Shown piece by piece: positions 57,313-63,927 of a stretch of 64,000 bases of DNA. Within the stretch, counting starts at the first letter, position 1; each line of letters starts with the position of its first letter. The notes below the pieces were generated by a model. The model was given only the letters and a program-made list of their open reading frames with translations. It was not told where the DNA came from and did no database searches. Location: NCBI GenBank assembly GCA_028717685.1, contig JAQUNI010000001.1, positions 54,306 to 118,305 on the forward strand. Direction: 5' to 3'. The position numbers and the translations under genes are program-made. The stretch comes from Patescibacteria group bacterium (GTDB taxonomy: Bacteria > Patescibacteriota > JAQUNI01).

Positions 57313-59061
57313 ATGAAGGACAAATTAAAAAACGATACAGTCAATTCCAACGGGGTGAAATTTGACGACAAAACAATAAAGAAGATTCTCTTAAAAGGGA
57401 ACTATATTACTGAAGAAGATGTTAAGAACGCGGATGATTTTGCCACAACGCACCAAGTGTCATTCATAGGGTATCTGCTCCAAGAAAATCTCATCACCAA
57501 GGACCTCTTGGGGCAGGCGATTGCCGAATCGTTCAAGGTTCCCTACGCTGACTTAAATTCAGCACCACCCGCACCTCTGCAGGTGCAAAAAATTCCGGAG
57601 GAGACCGCGAAAAAATATCACGCGGTTATTTTCGCTGAAGAAAAAAACAAAACCGTAGTCGCCACCGATAATCCAGAAGATCCAACACTCCTGCCGGAAT
57701 TAGAAAAGCTGTTTGTCGGCAGGAGGTTGAGCATTGTCTATTCGCTGACCGAGGACATCAACGCGAGCTTTGTGCATTATCAAAAGCCGCTTGAAACCCG
57801 CTTCTCTAAGATTATTGAGAGCAAAGGGCGAGTCGCGCCAGAGCTTTTGGAAGAAATTTTTGATGACGCGCTCGTATATCATGCCTCCGACATCCATTTT
57901 GAACCCAGGCAGAAAGATGTGCTTGTGCGGTTTCGCATTGACGGCGTTTTACAAGAAACCGGCAGGATCCCCAAAGAATATTACGAAAATATTCTTAATC
58001 GCATCAAGGTGCAAAGCGGTTTGCGCATTGATGAACACTTTGCCGCGCAAGACGGTTCGCTCCGGTATGAACCCTCCTCCTTTAAAGCTTCCTCCTACGC
58101 TAACGCTCCAGCGGGCAAAAAGGATAGCGTTGTTGTTGACCTTAGAACCTCAGTTGTCCCCACTGTTGAAGGAGAAAAAGTGGCATTGCGCGTACTCTCG
58201 GCATATGTGCAAGGATTTTCTCTTGGTGATCTTGGTCTTTCGCCGGCACATCAGCAGATACTTGAGCAAGCCGCCACAAAACCATTTGGCATGATTCTCG
58301 TAGCAGGTCCCACTGGTTCCGGAAAAACCACTACGCTTTACGCACTTTTGAAACTTGTAAATAGCCCAGAGGTGAACATCACCACTATTGAGGACCCGGT
58401 GGAGTACAGGGTGCTCGGCGTGAATCAAATTCAAATCAATCCTCTAACAAATCTCACTTTTGCCAAAGGACTGCGTTCTATCGTCCGCCAAGACCCGGAT
58501 ATTATTCTGGTCGGCGAGATTCGCGACGAAGAAACAGCAGAAATCGCCGTAAATGCGGCACTCACCGGCCATCTTCTCTACTCCACATTTCACGCCAACG
58601 ATGCCGCTACCGCCATTCCTCGGCTTCTGGATATGGGCATTGAACCGTTTCTTTTGGCTTCCACGCTTGAGGTTATTGTCGCCCAGCGACTCGTGCGTAA
58701 AATTTGCGAACATTGCCGGCATAGTGTTACCAAATCGGCAAATGATTGGAAGACGCCTCAGCTTCGGTCAGTTATGCCATATCTTTCCAAAAAGTCGATC
58801 ACGCTCTATGAAGGGAAGAAGTGCGAGATGTGCGGCTATACGGGGTACAAAGGACGAACTGCTATTTTTGAATTCATCCAAATCACTCCGGAGATGCGGA
58901 ATCTCATCTTACACTCCCCGTCAACTAAAGAAATCTGGCAACTCGCCAGTAAGGATGGTTCAAAAACACTTTTTGAAGACGGCATTGAAAAAGTTAAGAC
59001 TGGAGTAACCACAATAGAAGAGCTGCTTCGCGTCGCCGAACCGCCGCAGAAGAGTGGGTAG
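57313..59061 (+). CDS. pilB: type IV pilus assembly ATPase PilB (GspE family)
   Basis: 582 aa: N-terminal GSPII_E N1 domain, Walker A VAGPTGSGKTTT, Asp/His boxes, tetracysteine motif (CEHC...CEMC). Confidence 0.9.
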   Translation: MKDKLKNDTVNSNGVKFDDKTIKKILLKGNYITEEDVKNADDFATTHQVSFIGYLLQENLITKDLLGQAIAESFKVPYADLNSAPPAPLQVQKIPEETAKKYHAVIFAEEKNKTVVATDNPEDPTLLPELEKLFVGRRLSIVYSLTEDINASFVHYQKPLETRFSKIIESKGRVAPELLEEIFDDALVYHASDIHFEPRQKDVLVRFRIDGVLQETGRIPKEYYENILNRIKVQSGLRIDEHFAAQDGSLRYEPSSFKASSYANAPAGKKDSVVVDLRTSVVPTVEGEKVALRVLSAYVQGFSLGDLGLSPAHQQILEQAATKPFGMILVAGPTGSGKTTTLYALLKLVNSPEVNITTIEDPVEYRVLGVNQIQINPLTNLTFAKGLRSIVRQDPDIILVGEIRDEETAEIAVNAALTGHLLYSTFHANDAATAIPRLLDMGIEPFLLASTLEVIVAQRLVRKICEHCRHSVTKSANDWKTPQLRSVMPYLSKKSITLYEGKKCEMCGYTGYKGRTAIFEFIQITPEMRNLILHSPSTKEIWQLASKDGSKTLFEDGIEKVKTGVTTIEELLRVAEPPQKSG

Positions 59062-59067
59062 TAGGAT

Positions 59068-59084
59068 TAGTTGGTAGTTTGTAG
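59068..59084. repeat. left inverted repeat flanking four-helix-bundle gene 1
   Basis: tagttggtagtttgtag is the perfect reverse complement of 59468..59484. Confidence 0.7.
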
Positions 59085-59103
59085 TGAGTAGTTAGTAGTA
59101 AAT

Positions 59104-59463
59104 ATGAAAATTGAATCGTACGAAAATTTAATTGTGTGGCAAAAGTCAATGGATCTGGTGATTGCTGTTTATGCATTGACAGAAAAATTTCCAAAAGAAG
59201 AACTATACGGTTTAACTTCACAAATGCGCCGCGCAACTGTTTCAGTTCCTTCCAATATTGCGGAAGGTAGTAGGCGTGGTTCTCGAAAAAATTTTAGAAA
59301 TTTTTTACTCAATGCGTATGGTTCCAGTGCAGAGCTTGGGACTCAGATCAAAATCGCGAAACGGCTTTCATACGGAAAAACCAAAAATTATGAGCAAGCG
59401 GATGCACTGCTTGATGAAGTAATGCGCATGTTAGACAAATTGACGTATGGGCTCAAAGAATAA
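59104..59463 (+). CDS. four-helix-bundle protein (23S rRNA IVS-protein / Avd-like fold family), copy 1
   Basis: 119 aa (MKIESYENLIVWQKSMDLV...LTSQMRRATVSVPSNIAEG); about 92 percent identical to the copy at 61765..62124. Confidence 0.7.
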   Translation: MKIESYENLIVWQKSMDLVIAVYALTEKFPKEELYGLTSQMRRATVSVPSNIAEGSRRGSRKNFRNFLLNAYGSSAELGTQIKIAKRLSYGKTKNYEQADALLDEVMRMLDKLTYGLKE

Positions 59464-60886
59464 AAGTCTACAAACTACCAACTACAAACTACAAACTATC
59501 TTCCTAGGCAAAGAACGGGACTATTTTATTGAGAATTTAAGCATGCTGGTCGCCGCTGGCATGCCGATTTTGGGCGTTCTCGACTCCATTGCCAAAGAAC
59601 TGCGCTCGCGCCGCATGAAAAAAATTCTTGCTCTTATTCGGGAATATATTGAATCTGGCTCGCCAATTTGGAAAGCGCTTCAAACAACTAACCTGTTTGC
59701 CGACCACACTATCTCGCTTATCCGCCTTGGCGAAGAATCGGGAAAGCTTACGGAGAACTTAAAAGTGGTCGCGAATGAACAAGAAAAAAATCGGGTGTTC
59801 CACTCCAAGCTTCGTTCCGCCATAATGTATCCTGTATTCGTACTCTCACTCACGGTCATTATCGGTGTGGGCATTGCGTGGTTTATTTTGCCCAAGCTGG
59901 CGCTGGTGTTTGCCCAGCTTAAAATAACCTTGCCCCTTATCACAAAAATTTTGATCGGATCGGGAACATTTCTTGGCGAATATGGCCAATACGTCGTGCC
60001 CGCGGCAGTTATAGCAATATCAGTTATTTTTTTCTTTATTTTCTCATTTCCAAAAACAAAATTTATCGGGCAATTTATTTTATTTTCTTTGCCCGGCGTT
60101 AAACAACTTATTAAGGAAGTGGAGCTGGCGCGGCTCGGTTATCTTTTAGGCACGCTTCTTGACGCTGGACTGCCGGTAACCCAAGCGCTCAACTCGCTCG
60201 CAAGCGCTACCGAGATTGCGCCATACAAAAAACTCTACAAACACCTGCGCGACTCGGTAGAAGACGGCAATCCGTTCCGGAAAAGCTTTATTTCCTTTAA
60301 GCGCACTAATCATCTTATTCCCGAACCTATTCAGCAACTCATCGTCGCTGGTGAACAGTCAGGCACTCTTTCAGCAACTCTTCTTAAAATCGGAGAGACT
60401 TATGAAGCTAAAGCGGACACGACGACAAAAAATTTGACCGTGATTCTGGAGCCGATATTACTCGTCATCGTGTGGCTCGGCGTTGTAGCCGTGGCGTTAG
60501 CAGTGATTTTGCCAATCTACAGCCTTATCGGCGGATTTAACGCCAACCAGCCCGCAGCGGCACAGCCTCCTCCTGCCGAAGAACAGGTAATCAGTCCGCC
60601 GCCAAGTGTGGAAACAACAGCTCCAGATACAGAAACCGTGGAAGTAATACCCCCTCCGGATACAGAAATCATAGAGAAAAAACCAACAACGCTCCGCGTT
60701 CTTCCCACTAGCGTAGGGTATCTTAACGTGCGCGAGAAACCATCATTAACAAGTAAAATCGTCACGCGCGTTAAGCCGGGTGAAACATTTGAATACACTG
60801 AAAAAAACGAGAGCTGGTATAAAATTATTTTGCCGGATGGCAATTCCGGATGGGTGTTTGAAAAATATGTTGAAGAAAATGAATAA
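59447..60886 (+). CDS. pilC: type IV pilus platform protein PilC (GspF family) with C-terminal SH3b-like domain
   Basis: 479 aa: two GspF repeats and three TM segments, then a Pro/Thr/Glu-rich linker and an SH3b-like domain (YLNVREKPSLTSKIVTRVKPGETFEY...WYKI...GWV). ATG overlaps the 4HB stop. Confidence 0.85.
   Translation: MGSKNKSLQTTNYKLQTIFLGKERDYFIENLSMLVAAGMPILGVLDSIAKELRSRRMKKILALIREYIESGSPIWKALQTTNLFADHTISLIRLGEESGKLTENLKVVANEQEKNRVFHSKLRSAIMYPVFVLSLTVIIGVGIAWFILPKLALVFAQLKITLPLITKILIGSGTFLGEYGQYVVPAAVIAISVIFFFIFSFPKTKFIGQFILFSLPGVKQLIKEVELARLGYLLGTLLDAGLPVTQALNSLASATEIAPYKKLYKHLRDSVEDGNPFRKSFISFKRTNHLIPEPIQQLIVAGEQSGTLSATLLKIGETYEAKADTTTKNLTVILEPILLVIVWLGVVAVALAVILPIYSLIGGFNANQPAAAQPPPAEEQVISPPPSVETTAPDTETVEVIPPPDTEIIEKKPTTLRVLPTSVGYLNVREKPSLTSKIVTRVKPGETFEYTEKNESWYKIILPDGNSGWVFEKYVEENE
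59468..59484. repeat. right inverted repeat flanking four-helix-bundle gene 1 (also encodes the N-terminus of PilC)
   Basis: ctacaaactaccaacta; read in the pilC frame it encodes LQTTNYKLQT. Confidence 0.7.
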
Positions 60887-61038
60887 ACAAAACTAACAAA
60901 TGACACATAACATCTGACACATGACATTTGACACATATGAAACAAAAAAAATTATAGGAAAATAAAAGGGCATCGTCAGATGTTAGGTATCAGATGTTCC
61001 AAAAGGGTTTACCCAGCACCACTTTTTAGATTATAAAC

Positions 61039-61731
61039 ATGTATTACGTCTATACCTTAATTAGTAAGTTAAAAAATAAGACAGAAATATATATTGGATC
61101 AACAAATGATCTGAGAAGAAGACTAAGAGATCATAATAATGGTAAAGAAAGATCTACAAAACGTTATAGGACGTGGAATCTGATTTACTACGAAGCATAT
61201 ATAACAGAGAGTCTAGCAAGATTAAGAGAAAAACGATTGAAACATCACGGAAATGCGATGAAAGAATTAAAAAAAAGAATCGGATTATCCGAATGGAAAA
61301 GTGGTGCTGGGTTTACCTTGCTGGAAGTTCTTCTCTCTATCGCGGCGATCGCGATTATCGCCGTAATTTCTATTCCCATTTATCAGTCGTTTCAGGTGCG
61401 AAACGATCTTGATATCGCGACCATGGAAATTGCCCAAACTTTGCGGCGCGCGCAAGTACTTTCCCAAGCGGTTGATGGCGACACAAGCTGGGGCGTTTCT
61501 CTCGCAAGCGGAAATATCACGCTTTTTAAGGGCGTAAGTTACGCCACCCGCGATACCAATTTTGATGAAGTGTTTGATGTATCAACAAATATCACTCCAT
61601 CGGGACCTTCCGAAATCGTGTTTGTAAAATTTACAGGCTTACCACAGACCACGGGGACAATAATGCTATCCTCCAATATGAATGAAACGAGAAATATAGT
61701 AATTAACCAGAAGGGAATGGTTAATTATTAG
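61039..61731 (+). CDS. GIY-YIG nuclease domain fused in frame to a type IV prepilin
   Basis: 230 aa. Residues 1-90 are a complete GIY-YIG domain (YYVYTL...IYIGSTNDLRRRLRDHN...YYE...E). Residues 74-91 look like a prepilin leader (MKELKKRIGLSEWKSGAG) followed by the cleavage/methylation motif G/FTLLEV and a hydrophobic helix. Confidence 0.7.
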   Translation: MYYVYTLISKLKNKTEIYIGSTNDLRRRLRDHNNGKERSTKRYRTWNLIYYEAYITESLARLREKRLKHHGNAMKELKKRIGLSEWKSGAGFTLLEVLLSIAAIAIIAVISIPIYQSFQVRNDLDIATMEIAQTLRRAQVLSQAVDGDTSWGVSLASGNITLFKGVSYATRDTNFDEVFDVSTNITPSGPSEIVFVKFTGLPQTTGTIMLSSNMNETRNIVINQKGMVNY

Positions 61732-61736
61732 TTGGT

Positions 61737-61752
61737 AGTTTGTAGTGGGTAG
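61737..61752. repeat. left inverted repeat flanking four-helix-bundle gene 2
   Basis: agtttgtagtgggtag is the perfect reverse complement of 62129..62144. Confidence 0.7.
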
Positions 61753-61764
61753 TTGGTAGTAAAT

Positions 61765-62124
61765 ATGAAAATTGAATCATACGAAAATTTAATTGTGTGG
61801 CAAAAGTCAATGGATTTAGTGATTGCTGTTTATGCATTGACAGGAAAATTTCCAAAAGCAGAACTATACGGTTTAACTTCACAAATGCGCCGCGCGGCTG
61901 TTTCAATTCCTTCCAATATCGCGGAGGGGAGCAGGCGCGGTTCTCGGAAGGATTTTAGAAATTTTTTACTCAATGCGTATGGTTCTGGTGCAGAGCTTGA
62001 AACTCAAGTTAAAATTGCGAAACGACTTTCATACGGAAAAACCAAAGATTATGAGCAGGCGGACGCGCTGCTCGATGAAGTAATGCGCATGTTAAACAAA
62101 TTGACGTATGGGCTCAAAGAATAA
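61765..62124 (+). CDS. four-helix-bundle protein (23S rRNA IVS-protein / Avd-like fold family), copy 2
   Basis: 119 aa from the ATG at 61765 (the ORF track starts at an upstream TTG). Ten substitutions relative to copy 1. Confidence 0.7.
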   Translation: MKIESYENLIVWQKSMDLVIAVYALTGKFPKAELYGLTSQMRRAAVSIPSNIAEGSRRGSRKDFRNFLLNAYGSGAELETQVKIAKRLSYGKTKDYEQADALLDEVMRMLNKLTYGLKE

Positions 62125-62746
62125 AAATCTACCCACTACAAACTACAAACTACCCACTCAACAAGGCTTCAGCCTTGTTGAAGTTATTCTCGCCAGCGCG
62201 GTGTTTGTTTTGTTCGTTACCGCGCTTGTCGGAGCGTACCTCTATGGGCAGGAGTCAACCGCGCTTGCCGGCAATCGCGCGCGCGCGACGATTCTTGCCG
62301 AAGAAGGGCTTGAGGCAGTGCGCAATATCCGCGATGCCGGATTTTCTAATCTCACCGACGGCACCTACGGATTGGCTGTTGTCGGCAACCAATGGGCGTT
62401 ATTCGGAACATCAGACACAACGGGTATTTTTACCCGCCAAATTACAATTTCCGCTGTAGATTCAGAACGAAAAAGCGTGACTGCGAATGTCGCTTGGCAA
62501 CAAAATGCCCAGCGCCCGGGAGCAGTTGCCCTGACGACCTATCTTACTAACTGGAAAAAGGCGACTCCTGTCAATTCCTGCGATATTTACTGCCAGTTGT
62601 TGGGAACCTATACCACTGGTACCTGTCGGGAAAATTCCCAACAATGTACTAAGTATGACGAGATTTATGAGGCGGGCGGTGATCCTATTTGTGTGACTAG
62701 TTTTCCTGGCGACGCCAGCCATGATACTTGTTGCTGCAAACCATAA
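62108..62746 (+). CDS. type IV pilin-like protein with Cys-rich C-terminus
   Basis: 212 aa: leader MGSKNKNLPTTNYKLPTQQG, cleavage motif G/FSLVEV (Glu at +5), hydrophobic helix; eight Cys in the last 55 residues. ATG overlaps the 4HB copy 2 stop. Confidence 0.7.
   Translation: MGSKNKNLPTTNYKLPTQQGFSLVEVILASAVFVLFVTALVGAYLYGQESTALAGNRARATILAEEGLEAVRNIRDAGFSNLTDGTYGLAVVGNQWALFGTSDTTGIFTRQITISAVDSERKSVTANVAWQQNAQRPGAVALTTYLTNWKKATPVNSCDIYCQLLGTYTTGTCRENSQQCTKYDEIYEAGGDPICVTSFPGDASHDTCCCKP
62129..62144. repeat. right inverted repeat flanking four-helix-bundle gene 2 (encodes part of a prepilin leader)
   Basis: ctacccactacaaact; in the pilin frame it encodes LPTTNYKL. Confidence 0.7.
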
Positions 62747-62751
62747 TTTAG

Positions 62752-62823
62752 GGATTAGTTTGTAGTGAGTAGTTGGTAGGTTGTAGTTTTCTACTCACTA
62801 CTCACTACAAACTACAAACTAAC
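62752..62823. repeat. inverted-repeat hairpin of the leader-coding motif with no gene in the loop
   Basis: agtttgtagtgagtagttggtag...ctactcactactcactacaaactacaaact: the same arms that flank the 4HB genes, here adjacent, just upstream of the pilin ATG at 62824. Confidence 0.6.
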
Positions 62824-63348
62824 ATGCTACCAACTACAAACTACCAACTACAAACCCAGCGTGGCTTCACGCTAATTGAACTGCTTCTCTATGTTGCCGT
62901 TGCGTCGGCGATACTTTTGGCGATTTCGGTTTTTCTTTCAATCCTCCTTCAGTCGCGCATCAAAAATCAAACTATCGCTGAAGTGGAACAGCAGGGGCTT
63001 CAAGTTATGCAACTCGTTACGCAAACCGCGCGCAACGCCGAGGCAATCACCTCGCCAGCGCAGGGCGCAAGCGCTTCATCTTTGACGCTTGACGTTATTT
63101 CTGCTGCCAGTGACCCCACTATTTTTGATCTCGCAAGCGGCGCGATTCGCGTCAAAGAAGGGGCTGGTTCAGCTACCGCTCTTACTAATTCTCGCGTTAC
63201 CGCTTCCGCTCTCACATTCCAAAATCTCTCTCGCACCGACACTCCGGGCACGGTTCGCGTCCAATTCACCCTCGCACATACAAATCCAGAAGGCAGAAAT
63301 GAATACTCATTTACTAAAACATTTATCGGCTCTGCGAGCCTGCGCTAG
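62824..63348 (+). CDS. type IV pilin-like protein
   Basis: Start taken at ATG 62824 (ORF track: 62773). Leader MLPTTNYQLQTQRG, cleavage motif G/FTLIEL (Glu at +5), hydrophobic helix LLYVAVASAILLAISVF. Confidence 0.7.
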   Translation: MLPTTNYQLQTQRGFTLIELLLYVAVASAILLAISVFLSILLQSRIKNQTIAEVEQQGLQVMQLVTQTARNAEAITSPAQGASASSLTLDVISAASDPTIFDLASGAIRVKEGAGSATALTNSRVTASALTFQNLSRTDTPGTVRVQFTLAHTNPEGRNEYSFTKTFIGSASLR

Positions 63349-63480
63349 TCATAATGCGGCAAATGCCGCAACGACTGACACTTGATACCTAGCACCTGAC
63401 AACTGACCACTAACATCTAACATTTTGTTAGGTGTCAGATGCCAAATGTCAGGTGTTAGGTGCTAGGTGTCAAGTGTTAA

Positions 63481-63927
63481 TTGTATAGAACCAGGTTATT
63501 CACACTCATGATTATTTTAAAATATAAAAAGTGTTATAATAAACAGGAGGATGGGTTCATTACCCTAATAAGTGTCTTGGTGGTTGGAGCGGTTGGAATA
63601 GCCCTCACAATTTCCGTGATTTTGCTCGGGCTTGGGTCGTCGCGAACAAGTTTTACGAATGAGCAGTCAAACCAAGCGAAAGCCCTCACTAACGCCTGTG
63701 CCGAAGAAGCTCTTCAGCAAATTCGTGATTCTGTGAATTTTGAAGGTACCGGTAGCCTTACTTTAGGTCTGGGCAGCTGCACCTATACCGTGACCAAACT
63801 TGTTAGCCAGAACCGAACCGTCACCGCCAGCGGGACAGTGGGAACAATCATAAGAAAAGCAAGTATTGCTCTTGATACAATCAGACCGAGCATCAACATC
63901 ACTTCCTGGCAAGAGGTGGCTGATTAG
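63481..63927 (+). CDS. minor pilin/pseudopilin-like protein
   Basis: 148 aa: G/FITLIS followed by a hydrophobic helix (VLVVGAVGIALTISVILLG); Ser instead of Glu at +5. True start is probably an internal Met. Confidence 0.5.
   Translation: MYRTRLFTLMIILKYKKCYNKQEDGFITLISVLVVGAVGIALTISVILLGLGSSRTSFTNEQSNQAKALTNACAEEALQQIRDSVNFEGTGSLTLGLGSCTYTVTKLVSQNRTVTASGTVGTIIRKASIALDTIRPSINITSWQEVAD

What the first reader, a model, noticed from the sequence alone, without database searches (positions are those of the whole stretch)
61039..61731. Complete GIY-YIG nuclease domain fused in frame to a type IV prepilin at the leader position
A full small GIY-YIG domain (residues 1-90) runs without a stop into a canonical prepilin cleavage/methylation motif (G/FTLLEV) and hydrophobic helix. 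Prepilin leaders are normally 5-25 residues, so a ~90-residue folded nuclease domain as leader is highly atypical. Either prepilin peptidase releases a free GIY-YIG domain together with the mature pilin, or a selfish GIY-YIG element inserted precisely at the pilin 5' end and the pilin is translated from internal Met74 (MKELKKRIGLSEWKSGAG/FTLLEV).
Basis: partly seen in the sequence, partly recalled or inferred. Interest (0 to 1): 0.75.

Follow-up and report, generated by a model that had tools for sequence, protein, structure and literature searches.

The report
Selfish nuclease gene inside pilin leader
A 300-bp mobile element that encodes only a small GIY-YIG nuclease has inserted, in frame, exactly at the leader-cleavage codons of a type IV pilin gene and rebuilds the cleavage site at its own end, so the cell's prepilin peptidase can probably cut nuclease and pilin apart; this recurs widely in Patescibacteria and I found no description of it.

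Summary
ORF 61039..61731 encodes a complete GIY-YIG domain (residues 1-80), an 11-residue linker, then a canonical prepilin site (KSGAG|FTLLEV), transmembrane helix and pilin body. Two independent assemblies are identical, so it is not an artefact.

The origin is a mobile-element insertion. The nuclease gene is bracketed by a perfect 16-bp inverted repeat and a TTTA direct repeat. A relic of the original short pilin leader lies just upstream. Orthologues with an empty site (MKNAQG|FTLLEV) exist. The same repeat-bounded architecture surrounds related 81-100 aa free-standing GIY-YIG genes at unrelated sites.

The right inverted repeat reads K-S-G-A-G, so its terminal GGG becomes the Gly(-1) codon. 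Among the 145 closest representative relatives examined, 82 of the 88 proteins of at least 150 aa carry the same in-frame prepilin junction. Met74 is not a conserved start: 5 of 14 fusions have no in-frame start codon before the cleavage site.

Best reading: the fusion is translated whole and prepilin peptidase releases a cytoplasmic nuclease plus a normal pilin. This cleavage step is inferred, not shown. I found no paper describing the arrangement. The closest known nuclease family is Ssn, small GIY-YIG nucleases whose genes are flanked by hairpin repeats.

The parts
60994..61029 (+). Relic of the pilin's original start codon and short leader, now a mini-ORF MFQKGLPSTTF* that ends 9 nt before the nuclease ATG and is in frame with it. 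It contains AAAGGGTTTACC, a relic of K-G-F-T.
   Evidence: Read directly from the sequence. The same arrangement occurs in L002 (MKNSGLTPHLF*, stop 3 nt before the ATG) and L017 (MEPQKKGFTPTF*). In L001 the relic MKNSGFT is still in frame with the nuclease.
61008..61011 (.). Left copy of the TTTA direct repeat (target-site duplication). The boundary is ambiguous by up to 3 nt because the flanking G/C bases are both palindromic and repeated (GGTTTACC).
   Evidence: Of 33 related loci, 23 have a flanking direct repeat of at least 4 nt, against a control mean of 0.99.
61011..61026 (.). Left inverted-repeat arm, ACCCAGCACCACTTTT.
   Evidence: It is a perfect 16-mer complement of 61297-61312. The arms co-vary between loci.
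61039..61278 (+). GIY-YIG nuclease domain, residues 1-80. GC is 0.28-0.33, against about 0.5 in the pilin part.
   Evidence: Pfam hit, composition, conserved Y3/Y5, Y18, G20, R28, H32, E57, AlphaFold2 fold, Foldseek hits to 1zg2 and Slx1.
61279..61311 (+). Linker, residues 81-91 (GLSEWKSGAG). It is the new end of the leader, and Gly91 (GGG 61309-61311) is the predicted -1 residue.
   Evidence: KSGAG is the consensus junction in the 82 fusion clusters.
61297..61312 (.). Right inverted-repeat arm, AAAAGTGGTGCTGGGT, read in frame as K-S-G-A-G.
61312..61315 (.). Right copy of the TTTA direct repeat (the Phe92 codon plus the first base of Thr93).
61312..61731 (+). Mature pilin, Phe92 to Tyr230, plus the stop codon. 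It is the orthologue of the 143-145 aa pilins that follow PilC in relatives.
   Evidence: Foldseek gives weak matches to EpsH/GspH-type minor pseudopilins.
57313..60886 (+). Context: type IV pilus ATPase PilB (57313-59061) and platform protein PilC (59447-60886), separated by an inserted four-helix-bundle (IVP) gene.
   Evidence: Relatives show the synteny RR-PilB-PilC-pilin.

Best explanation
A roughly 300-bp mobile cassette (61012-61311) carries only a GIY-YIG nuclease gene. It is bounded by inverted repeats with CCC...GGG termini and flanked by a TTTA duplication. It inserted into a type IV pilin gene between the Gly(-1) codon and the Phe(+1) codon of the prepilin cleavage site.

This lineage of the cassette has no stop codon before its right end. 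The right inverted repeat is read as K-S-G-A-G, so the terminal GGG recreates Gly(-1) in front of the duplicated TTT-A(CN).

Shown: the insertion origin, the element boundaries, the recurrence of the arrangement, and purifying selection on both halves.

Inferred: the whole 230-aa protein is translated, probably by ribosomes brought in by the old pilin start through the relic mini-ORF. The very basic nuclease domain (net charge about +13) stays in the cytoplasm while the pilin helix inserts into the membrane. Prepilin peptidase, which cuts on the cytoplasmic face after the leader's last Gly, then releases a free nuclease and a normal N-terminal Phe pilin. On this reading the insertion is nearly harmless to the host, and the element borrows the expression signals of a pilin gene.
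For: Insertion origin:
- Inverted repeats, the TTTA duplication and the relic leader are present in the window and in L001 and L002.
- In L002 the PilC stop, a 2-nt spacer and ATG AAA AAT TCT GGC are exactly as in the empty site of L083 (ATG AAA AAT GCC CAG GGC TTC ACG), followed by the element and then TTCACT CTA ATA GAA.
- Flanking direct repeats of at least 4 nt occur in 23 of 33 related loci, against a control mean of 0.99 and maximum of 4.
- Two copies in one MAG are 91% identical only within the 316-bp element.
- An ORF-less inverted-repeat pair lies in the L083 spacer.
- GC is 0.29-0.33 in the nuclease part and about 0.5 in the pilin part.

Recurrence:
- In-frame fusions to different pilins occur in 13 species-level genomes.
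- 82 of 88 long representatives among the closest GIY relatives carry the junction.

Selection:
- pN/pS is 0.24-0.31 for the nuclease and 0.20-0.29 for the pilin, with synonymous sites near saturation. An unfused pilin pair gives 0.19.
- Catalytic residues are invariant.
- P0003 and P0004, 92% identical in the pilin part, are both fused.

Against a separate start: 5 of 14 fusions have no in-frame start codon before Gly(-1).

Topology: the leader is cytoplasmic, variable in length and ends in Gly or Ala, and the peptidase active site is on the cytoplasmic face (PMC10191384, read).

Structure: two well-folded modules joined by a lower-confidence linker.
Against: - No protein-level evidence exists that the fusion is made or cleaved.
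- No prepilin peptidase gene lies in the 64-kb window (motif check).
- I found no example of a leader longer than a few tens of residues or containing a folded domain, so processing is an extrapolation.
- The transcript is predicted to close into a long stem (17 perfect base pairs plus extensions, z -5.9). If RNase III cut that stem, the pilin body would be separated from every start codon.
- One pilin-inserted element (L015) keeps its own stop and has a separate overlapping (ATGA) ORF for the prepilin, so fusion is not the only solution.
- The genome-locus sample was ranked with a query that included the pilin N-terminus, which favours in-frame cases.
Confidence: 0.6

Rival explanations
1. 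The pilin is made separately by internal initiation (Met74 in the window, giving the leader MKELKKRIGLSEWKSGAG). The long fusion is a by-product or is not made.
For: An in-frame ATG lies 17 codons before Gly(-1) in the window and in L001. This genome hardly uses Shine-Dalgarno sequences (6 of 59 ORFs), so the absence of a ribosome-binding site is not an argument against it. L015 shows that a separate prepilin ORF downstream of the nuclease can exist.
Against: Met74 is the GNA[M/I/L] consensus position of the nuclease family and also occurs in free-standing copies. Other fusions have Q, L, I or F there. Five of 14 fusions (L002, L006, L008, L017, L020) have no in-frame ATG, GTG or TTG at all between the nuclease core and Gly(-1).
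Confidence: 0.1
2. The insertion simply inactivates or cripples this pilin. The fused protein is not processed or assembled, and paralogous pilins in the cluster compensate. The open frame reflects recency or a property of the element rather than pilin function.
For: Several other pilin genes follow in the cluster. No processing evidence exists. The relic leader in the window has already lost its frame relative to the pilin.
Against: The pilin part is as constrained as unfused orthologues (pN/pS 0.20-0.29 against 0.19). Gly(-1), Glu(+5) and the hydrophobic helix are kept in 82 fusion clusters with intact ORFs of 189-612 aa. Both P0003 and P0004, which have diverged to 92%, keep the fusion. The decay of the relic leader argues that the insertion is not brand new.
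Confidence: 0.12
3. The fusion is a domesticated, functional arrangement. The prepilin signal is used to bring the nuclease to the cytoplasmic face of the type IV pilus and DNA-uptake machinery, for example to cut incoming single-stranded DNA, as Ssn nucleases modulate transformation in Neisseria.
For: Ssn-type single-domain GIY-YIG nucleases cut ssDNA at hairpin repeats and modulate natural transformation (PMC11893778). Both halves are under purifying selection. The fusion is very widespread.
Against: The same cassette family sits at many unrelated sites with its own stop codon: DnaA-box-like sequences, start codons, next to a tRNA gene. Fused pilins are scattered among unfused orthologues rather than forming a clade. 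This is the pattern of a parasite, not of a host innovation. Membership of Ssn could not be tested.
Confidence: 0.1
4. Sequencing or assembly error joined two separate genes.
For: None beyond the unusual architecture.
Against: Two independent assemblies are identical over 903 nt. More than 80 distinct fusion clusters come from many projects.
Confidence: 0.01

Closest known systems
Ssn family of single-domain GIY-YIG nucleases (cd10448; SsnA of Neisseria meningitidis) with flanking NTS/SRM hairpin repeats (PMC11893778)
   Same: A nuclease of about 80-100 aa consisting of a GIY-YIG domain only. The gene is bracketed by inverted-repeat or hairpin-forming sequences. ORF-less hairpin copies exist. 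The authors themselves noted that the repeat-gene-repeat layout looks like an insertion sequence.
   Different: Here one long-range inverted repeat closes the whole gene rather than a self-contained hairpin on each side. Variable 4-5 bp flanking duplications and sharply bounded multi-copy units show actual insertion events. The element sits inside coding sequence, in frame with a prepilin. Assignment to cd10448 and ssDNA cleavage could not be tested.
Inteins and 'fractured genes' with split inteins plus a free-standing homing endonuclease (PMC2677866)
   Same: A selfish nuclease gene is inserted within a host protein-coding gene, and the damage is repaired after translation, so the host protein stays functional.
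   Different: There is no Hint or splicing domain. Separation would be done by a host enzyme, prepilin peptidase, at a site the element rebuilds. Only one host fragment has to survive, because the leader is disposable.
Palindromic elements inserted in frame in protein-coding genes (Rickettsia palindromic elements; prokaryotic MITEs, reviewed in PMC10969869, which I listed but did not read in detail; the rest is from my own knowledge)
   Same: Short inverted-repeat elements are tolerated inside ORFs and translated as extra peptide. ORF-less hairpin copies here are translated as leader extensions (G-LPSTTF...KSGAG).
   Different: The element here carries its own nuclease gene and targets a processing site, so the extra peptide would be removed rather than retained.
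Non-intron insertions encoding GIY-YIG proteins in rRNA genes of CPR bacteria (PMC11270868), and classical 23S rRNA intervening sequences
   Same: The host clade is the same. Small ORFs are carried in stem-loop insertions that are not group I or II introns. Two IVP (23S-IVS protein) genes sit in hairpin loops next to this locus.
   Different: Those insertions are in rRNA and are removed at the RNA level. This one is in an mRNA coding region and would be removed at the protein level.
Type IV prepilins with long leaders (T4b pilins, Streptococcus sanguinis pilins; PMC10191384)
   Same: A hydrophilic cytoplasmic leader ends in Gly, followed by a hydrophobic helix with Glu5, and is processed on the cytoplasmic face.
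   Different: Known long leaders are tens of residues and unstructured. This one is 91 residues with a folded enzyme domain.

Membership tests
GIY-YIG nuclease superfamily (PF01541) | Match to the family profile above the curated threshold | tested here: met
   60.7 bits against a cut-off of 22.6, residues 1-75.
GIY-YIG nuclease superfamily (PF01541) | Conserved catalytic-core residues (Tyr of GIY, Tyr of YIG, Arg, Glu) | tested here: met
   Y3, Y5, Y18, G20, R28, H32 and E57 are invariant in an alignment with 22 relatives. The assignment of roles rests on general knowledge of the fold.
GIY-YIG nuclease superfamily (PF01541) | Three-stranded sheet plus helices fold | tested here: met
   AlphaFold2 pLDDT is above 89 over residues 1-80. 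Foldseek finds UPF0213 BH0048 (1zg2) and Slx1 at probability 1.0, but with weak E-values (1e-2 to 1e-1) because the whole chain was the query.
Type IV prepilin (class III signal peptide; PF07963 / TIGR02532) | Profile match above threshold, Gly at -1, Glu at +5, about 20 hydrophobic residues | tested here: met
   PF07963 scores 21.9 against 21.2 and TIGR02532 scores 19.8 against 16.3. The sequence is G91|FTLLE96VLLSIAAIAIIAVISIPIY.
Type IV prepilin (class III signal peptide; PF07963 / TIGR02532) | Short hydrophilic, unstructured leader at the extreme N-terminus | tested here: not met
   The leader is 91 residues with a folded domain. Orthologues have leaders of 5-6 residues.
Type IV prepilin (class III signal peptide; PF07963 / TIGR02532) | Encoded with type IV pilus machinery | tested here: met
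   PilB (T2SSE), PilC (T2SSF) and further prepilins are adjacent. Synteny is conserved in relatives.
Type IV prepilin (class III signal peptide; PF07963 / TIGR02532) | Cleavage and N-methylation by prepilin peptidase | not testable with these tools
   This needs biochemistry or proteomics. No A24 peptidase gene was seen in the window.
Ssn nucleases (cd10448) | CDD assignment to cd10448, or close homology to SsnA | not testable with these tools
   No CDD tool is available, no SsnA sequence is held (no supplements), and afdb50 is unavailable.
Ssn nucleases (cd10448) | Single-domain protein of about 94 aa whose gene is flanked on both sides by 20-50 nt hairpin repeats | tested here: inconclusive
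   Free-standing relatives are 81-100 aa, and solo hairpins occur next to some copies. Typically, though, the two flanks pair with each other rather than each forming a hairpin.
Ssn nucleases (cd10448) | Site-specific cleavage of single-stranded DNA | not testable with these tools
   Requires an enzymatic assay.
Insertion sequence / transposon | Terminal inverted repeats | tested here: met
   Arms of 14-28 bp with conserved CCCC(G/C)CAC...GTG(C/G)GGGG termini occur in most of 59 loci.
Insertion sequence / transposon | Target-site duplications that differ from site to site | tested here: met
   TTTA, TTAT, ATAA, TATGA, TTGA, TAAA, TAGG and TCTCA are seen. 23 of 33 loci have at least 4 nt, against a control mean of 0.99.
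Insertion sequence / transposon | Several copies in one genome with unrelated flanks | tested here: met
   L031 and L049, from the same MAG, are 91% identical over 316 bp, and the similarity ends at the element ends.
Insertion sequence / transposon | Encodes a recognised transposase (DDE, Y1/HUH, serine or tyrosine recombinase) | tested here: not met
   The only ORF is the GIY-YIG domain.
Homing endonuclease gene | Insertion at one conserved sequence of a conserved gene | tested here: met
   The pilin lineage always sits at GGN|TTY-ACN, the G|F-T codons.
Homing endonuclease gene | Spread by double-strand-break repair, leaving no target duplication; nuclease with an added DNA-binding domain | tested here: not met
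   Flanking duplications are present and the protein is a single domain.
Intein | Hint / protein-splicing domain with conserved junction residues | tested here: not met
   No such domain was found by Pfam or NCBIfam.

The most novel reading that the evidence does not exclude
The roughly 300-bp unit is an autonomous transposon whose only protein, an 81-90 aa GIY-YIG nuclease, mobilises it through its hairpin-forming ends. That would make it a transposition system outside all recognised transposase classes. One lineage has evolved an open right end that encodes K-S-G-A-G. It can then colonise the most conserved codons of any prepilin gene and be removed afterwards by the host's prepilin peptidase, a protein-level excision carried out by a signal peptidase. 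Release of the nuclease at the membrane next to the pilus and DNA-uptake machinery could additionally couple it to incoming single-stranded DNA.
Probability: 0.3. Interest if true: 0.9.

Novelty: new variant of a known kind. Interest (0 to 1): 0.8.

Why it matters
If the cleavage step holds, this is a third way for a selfish nuclease gene to live inside a host gene without destroying it, alongside self-splicing introns and inteins. The element hands the repair job to a host signal peptidase and carries the cleavage site in its own terminal repeat.

It would also show that prepilin peptidases can process leaders of about 90 residues that contain a folded domain. That bears on how these enzymes recognise substrates and could be used to co-express and release cargo proteins.

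The flanking duplications and sharply bounded copies give the first sequence-level evidence I am aware of that hairpin-flanked single-domain GIY-YIG genes are themselves mobile. The Ssn study left that question open for that kind of gene.

Practically, many Patescibacteria pilins are currently annotated only as 'GIY-YIG nuclease family protein', and their leaders and start sites are mis-called.

Tried and rejected
- Internal start at Met74. Rejected as a general mechanism. Shine-Dalgarno analysis was uninformative because only 6 of 59 ORFs in the window have such a motif.
- Assembly artefact. Rejected.
- Other GIY-YIG copies or extra inverted-repeat copies in the window. None found.
- Proper dN/dS. 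Synonymous sites are saturated (pS 0.5-0.93), so only uncorrected pN/pS is reported.
- Junction-centred protein search. It returned almost only free-standing nucleases because of the word index, so it did not serve as a census. The exhaustive search did.
- phmmer of the nuclease against PDB sequences. No hit.
- The contig for P0053 is not on record.
- Ssn membership. The paper has no held supplements and the afdb50 library was unavailable.
- Ribosome hopping from the relic leader to the duplicated GGG-TTT, and RNA-level excision of the stem-loop with re-ligation. Both were considered because of the direct repeats and the closing stem. They are unsupported: the gap is about 300 nt, and in the window the relic ATG is out of frame with the relic G-F-T.
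- Single ancient insertion inherited vertically. Rejected, because each fused pilin's nearest relatives are unfused.
- Literature searches for GIY-YIG together with prepilin, pilin, leader peptide, class III signal or target-site duplication found nothing relevant.

Full report
**1. The observation**

ORF 61039..61731 (+) is open for 230 codons.
- Pfam places a GIY-YIG domain on residues 1-75 (E 1.7e-16) and the prepilin N-methylation motif on residues 90-111. NCBIfam TIGR02532 agrees.
- The sequence around the junction is ...KKRIGLSEWKSGAG91|F92TLLE96VLLSIAAIAIIAVISIPIY.
- The AlphaFold2 model (mean pLDDT 94.7) has a compact beta/alpha nuclease domain at 1-80, a less confident linker at 81-93, a 50-residue pilin alpha-1 helix and a beta-sheet head. 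Foldseek matches the head to EpsH/GspH-type pseudopilins and the N-terminal domain to UPF0213 BH0048 and Slx1.
- The identical protein is in NCBI, from a Patescibacteria MAG. Two independent run-level assemblies match the window with no mismatch over 903 nt.

**2. Context**

The gene lies in a type IV pilus cluster. The order is response regulator, PilB, PilC, this gene, then further prepilins. In relatives the same cluster is compact. PilC is followed after 2 nt by a 143-145 aa pilin with a five- or six-residue leader, for example MKNAQG|FTLLEV in L083 and MKFSG|FTLIEM in L084. About a thousand such orthologues exist, and they align with residues 92-230 at up to 83% identity.

**3. The nuclease half is an insertion**

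- GC drops to 0.28-0.33 over the nuclease part and returns to about 0.5 in the pilin part.
- The nuclease gene is bracketed by a perfect 16-bp inverted repeat, ACCCAGCACCACTTTT at 61011-61026 and AAAAGTGGTGCTGGGT at 61297-61312. Immediately outside it is a direct repeat, TTTA, extendable to GGTTTACC.
- Just upstream lies ATG TTC CAA AAG GGT TTA CCC..TAG (60994-61029), which contains AAAGGGTTTACC. This is a decayed copy of a short pilin leader ending in K-G-F-T.
- The two other fusions whose DNA I fetched make the history explicit. In L001 the original leader ATG AAA AAT AGC GGC TTT ACC (MKNSGFT) is still in frame in front of the nuclease. In L002 the PilC stop, the 2-nt spacer and ATG AAA AAT TCT GGC are exactly as in the empty site. 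They are followed by [CTCA], the left arm, the nuclease, the right arm, [TTCA] and CT CTA ATA GAA.
- The element therefore entered between the Gly(-1) codon and the Phe(+1) codon and duplicated TTYA.

**4. The element is one of a family of small mobile units**

A scan of species-representative genomes returned 80 loci with related nuclease genes, nearly all in Patescibacteria MAGs.
- Most of these genes, fused or free-standing (81-100 aa), are bracketed by 14-28 bp inverted repeats. The termini are conserved (CCCC(G/C)CAC...GTG(C/G)GGGG). The inner parts differ between loci but always match between the two arms.
- Flanking direct repeats of at least 4 nt are present in 23 of 33 loci, against a mean of 0.99 (maximum 4) in a displaced-boundary control. 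They differ by site: TTTA, TTAT, ATAA, TATGA, TTGA, TAAA, TAGG, TCTCA.
- Two copies in one MAG are 91% identical over 316 bp, and the similarity stops at the element ends.
- ORF-less versions exist, both as solo hairpins next to some copies and in the PilB-PilC spacer of L083.

These are the signatures of a transposon-like element, yet its only ORF is the GIY-YIG domain.

**5. The pilin fusions are a specialised and widespread lineage**

In free-standing copies the stop codon lies at the inner edge of the right arm. In the pilin lineage there is no stop, and the right arm is read as K-S-G-A-G, so the terminal GGG becomes Gly(-1) in front of the duplicated TTT-A.
- Thirteen of the 80 genome loci are in-frame fusions to different pilin-like proteins of 210-671 aa.
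- An exhaustive search with the nuclease part alone found 4693 relatives. Among the 145 best newly retrieved representatives (of 150 listed), 88 are at least 150 aa. Of these, 82 carry ...KSGAG|FTLIE plus a hydrophobic stretch directly after the nuclease, with Gly(-1) at median residue 96. Clustering at 50% identity inflates the share of fusions, but not their absolute number.
- Fused pilins are scattered among unfused orthologues. The window's pilin is 83% identical to unfused P0006, but only 76% and 66% identical to the fused P0002 and P0004. This indicates repeated insertions or losses. The fused pair P0003/P0004 (92% identical) shows that the fusion can also persist.

**6. How the pilin is probably made**

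Five of 14 fusions have no in-frame ATG, GTG or TTG between the nuclease core and Gly(-1). Internal initiation therefore cannot be the general solution.

Both halves are constrained. pN/pS is 0.24-0.31 for the nuclease and 0.20-0.29 for the pilin, with synonymous sites near saturation. An unfused pair of pilins gives 0.19.

The topology fits. Prepilin leaders stay in the cytoplasm, vary in length, end in Gly or Ala, and are cut by a peptidase whose active site faces the cytoplasm (PMC10191384). The nuclease domain has a net charge of about +13 (counted from the sequence).

The best-supported mechanism is therefore:
- translation of the whole fusion;
- membrane insertion of the pilin helix;
- cleavage at Gly91|Phe92, releasing a cytoplasmic nuclease and a normal pilin.

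The relic mini-ORF ends 9 nt (window), 3 nt (L002) or 1 nt (L017) before the nuclease ATG, or is fused in frame (L001, L012). This suggests that the old pilin start still delivers ribosomes. All of these steps are inferred, not shown.

**7. Caveats**

- No peptidase gene is in the window.
- No leader of this size is documented in what I could search.
- The transcript is predicted to close into a long stem (z -5.9), which could be an RNase III target.
- L015 shows an alternative arrangement in which the nuclease keeps its stop and an overlapping ATGA starts a separate prepilin with a 23-residue, element-derived leader.

**8. Comparison with what is known**

- The nuclease most resembles the recently described Ssn family: single-domain GIY-YIG enzymes of about 94 aa whose genes are flanked by hairpin repeats. 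They cut ssDNA at those repeats and modulate transformation, and their authors noted the IS-like gene layout (PMC11893778). Membership could not be tested here.
- CPR rRNA genes are known to carry non-intron insertions encoding GIY-YIG proteins (PMC11270868).
- In concept the arrangement parallels inteins and 'fractured genes' (PMC2677866) and in-frame palindromic elements (MITE review PMC10969869). The difference is that the separating step would be done by a host signal peptidase at a site supplied by the element.
- Four literature searches combining GIY-YIG with prepilin, pilin, leader or target-site terms found no description of this arrangement.

**9. Verdict**

- The Met74 half is not supported.
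- Peptidase-mediated release is the leading but untested mechanism.

I rate this as a new variant of known kinds of selfish nuclease elements, of high interest.

Noticed in passing
window 59066-59500 and 61727-62160: Two copies, 91-92% identical, of a 23S-rRNA-IVS / four-helix-bundle (Avd-like) gene. Each sits in the loop of a hairpin built from 7-nt-period repeats (TAGTTKG / CMAACTA). The start codon of the next gene lies inside the 3' end of the IVP ORF, and the right hairpin arm is translated as its N-terminus: PilC MGSKNKSLQTTNYKLQT..., and pilin MGSKNKNLPTTNYKLPTQQG|FSLVEV. This looks like a second kind of small cassette using the same 5'-end niche.
   Followed up: partly
window 62755-62822 (pilin 62824-63348): A heptamer-repeat hairpin without an ORF. 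Its right arm encodes the leader MLPTTNYQLQTQRG|FTLIELL. Similar '...YKLQ...' leaders occur in pilins of other Patescibacteria (P0063, P0037, P0016, P0116).
   Followed up: partly
window 60893-60998 and 63371-63484: Further long intergenic hairpins made of 7-nt-period repeats (TGACAYN / TGTYAGG). The relic pilin start codon at 60994 lies in the right arm of the first one. Many other gene starts in the window are preceded by ATTCCYA-like repeats.
   Followed up: no
L031, L034, L043, L046, L049, L060 (element ends near 2456 and 2771): A sub-lineage of the 84-aa nuclease elements sits in TGTGGATAAC / GTTATCCACA, which is the DnaA-box consensus by my own knowledge, and duplicates TTAT / ATAA.
   Followed up: partly
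L032, L044, L057: Elements that duplicate TATGA, so the start codon of the downstream gene is copied on both sides of the insert.
   Followed up: no
L083 2292-2395: An ORF-less inverted-repeat pair, ATCCCTCACTTTTC / GAAAGGTGAGGGAT, with 76 nt between the arms, lies in the PilB-PilC spacer of a genome whose pilin site is empty. It looks like a miniature (MITE-like) derivative of the nuclease element.
   Followed up: partly
L003, L004, L006, L013, L015, L020 (just downstream of the nuclease core): Solo hairpins (left arm, short loop, right arm; tandem in L020) lie between nuclease and pilin. They are translated in frame as 'G-LPSTTF...KSGAG'. The three reading frames of the same DNA motif explain the odd C-terminal tails (LPSTTF, FTQHHF, VYPAPLF) of many free-standing nucleases.
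   Followed up: partly
window 59447-60886: PilC carries a C-terminal SH3_3 domain (residues 425-476) preceded by a Pro/Glu/Thr-rich repeat. Orthologues in L083 and L084 are about 110 residues shorter.
   Followed up: no
window 63481-63927: The last ORF has a pilin-like N-terminus without Glu5 (...QEDG|FITLISVLVVGAVG). The same non-canonical type is the fusion partner in L011, P0318, P0343 and P0367.
   Followed up: no
whole window: Only 6 of 59 long ORFs have a Shine-Dalgarno-like motif upstream, so start-site calls in this genome cannot rely on ribosome-binding sites.
   Followed up: no
L003, L005, L010, L015, L043, L047, L079: Contigs carrying these Patescibacteria-type elements and pilins are labelled Methylomirabilis, Gammaproteobacteria, Methylobacter or Elusimicrobia in their MAG records. 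This probably reflects binning errors.
   Followed up: no
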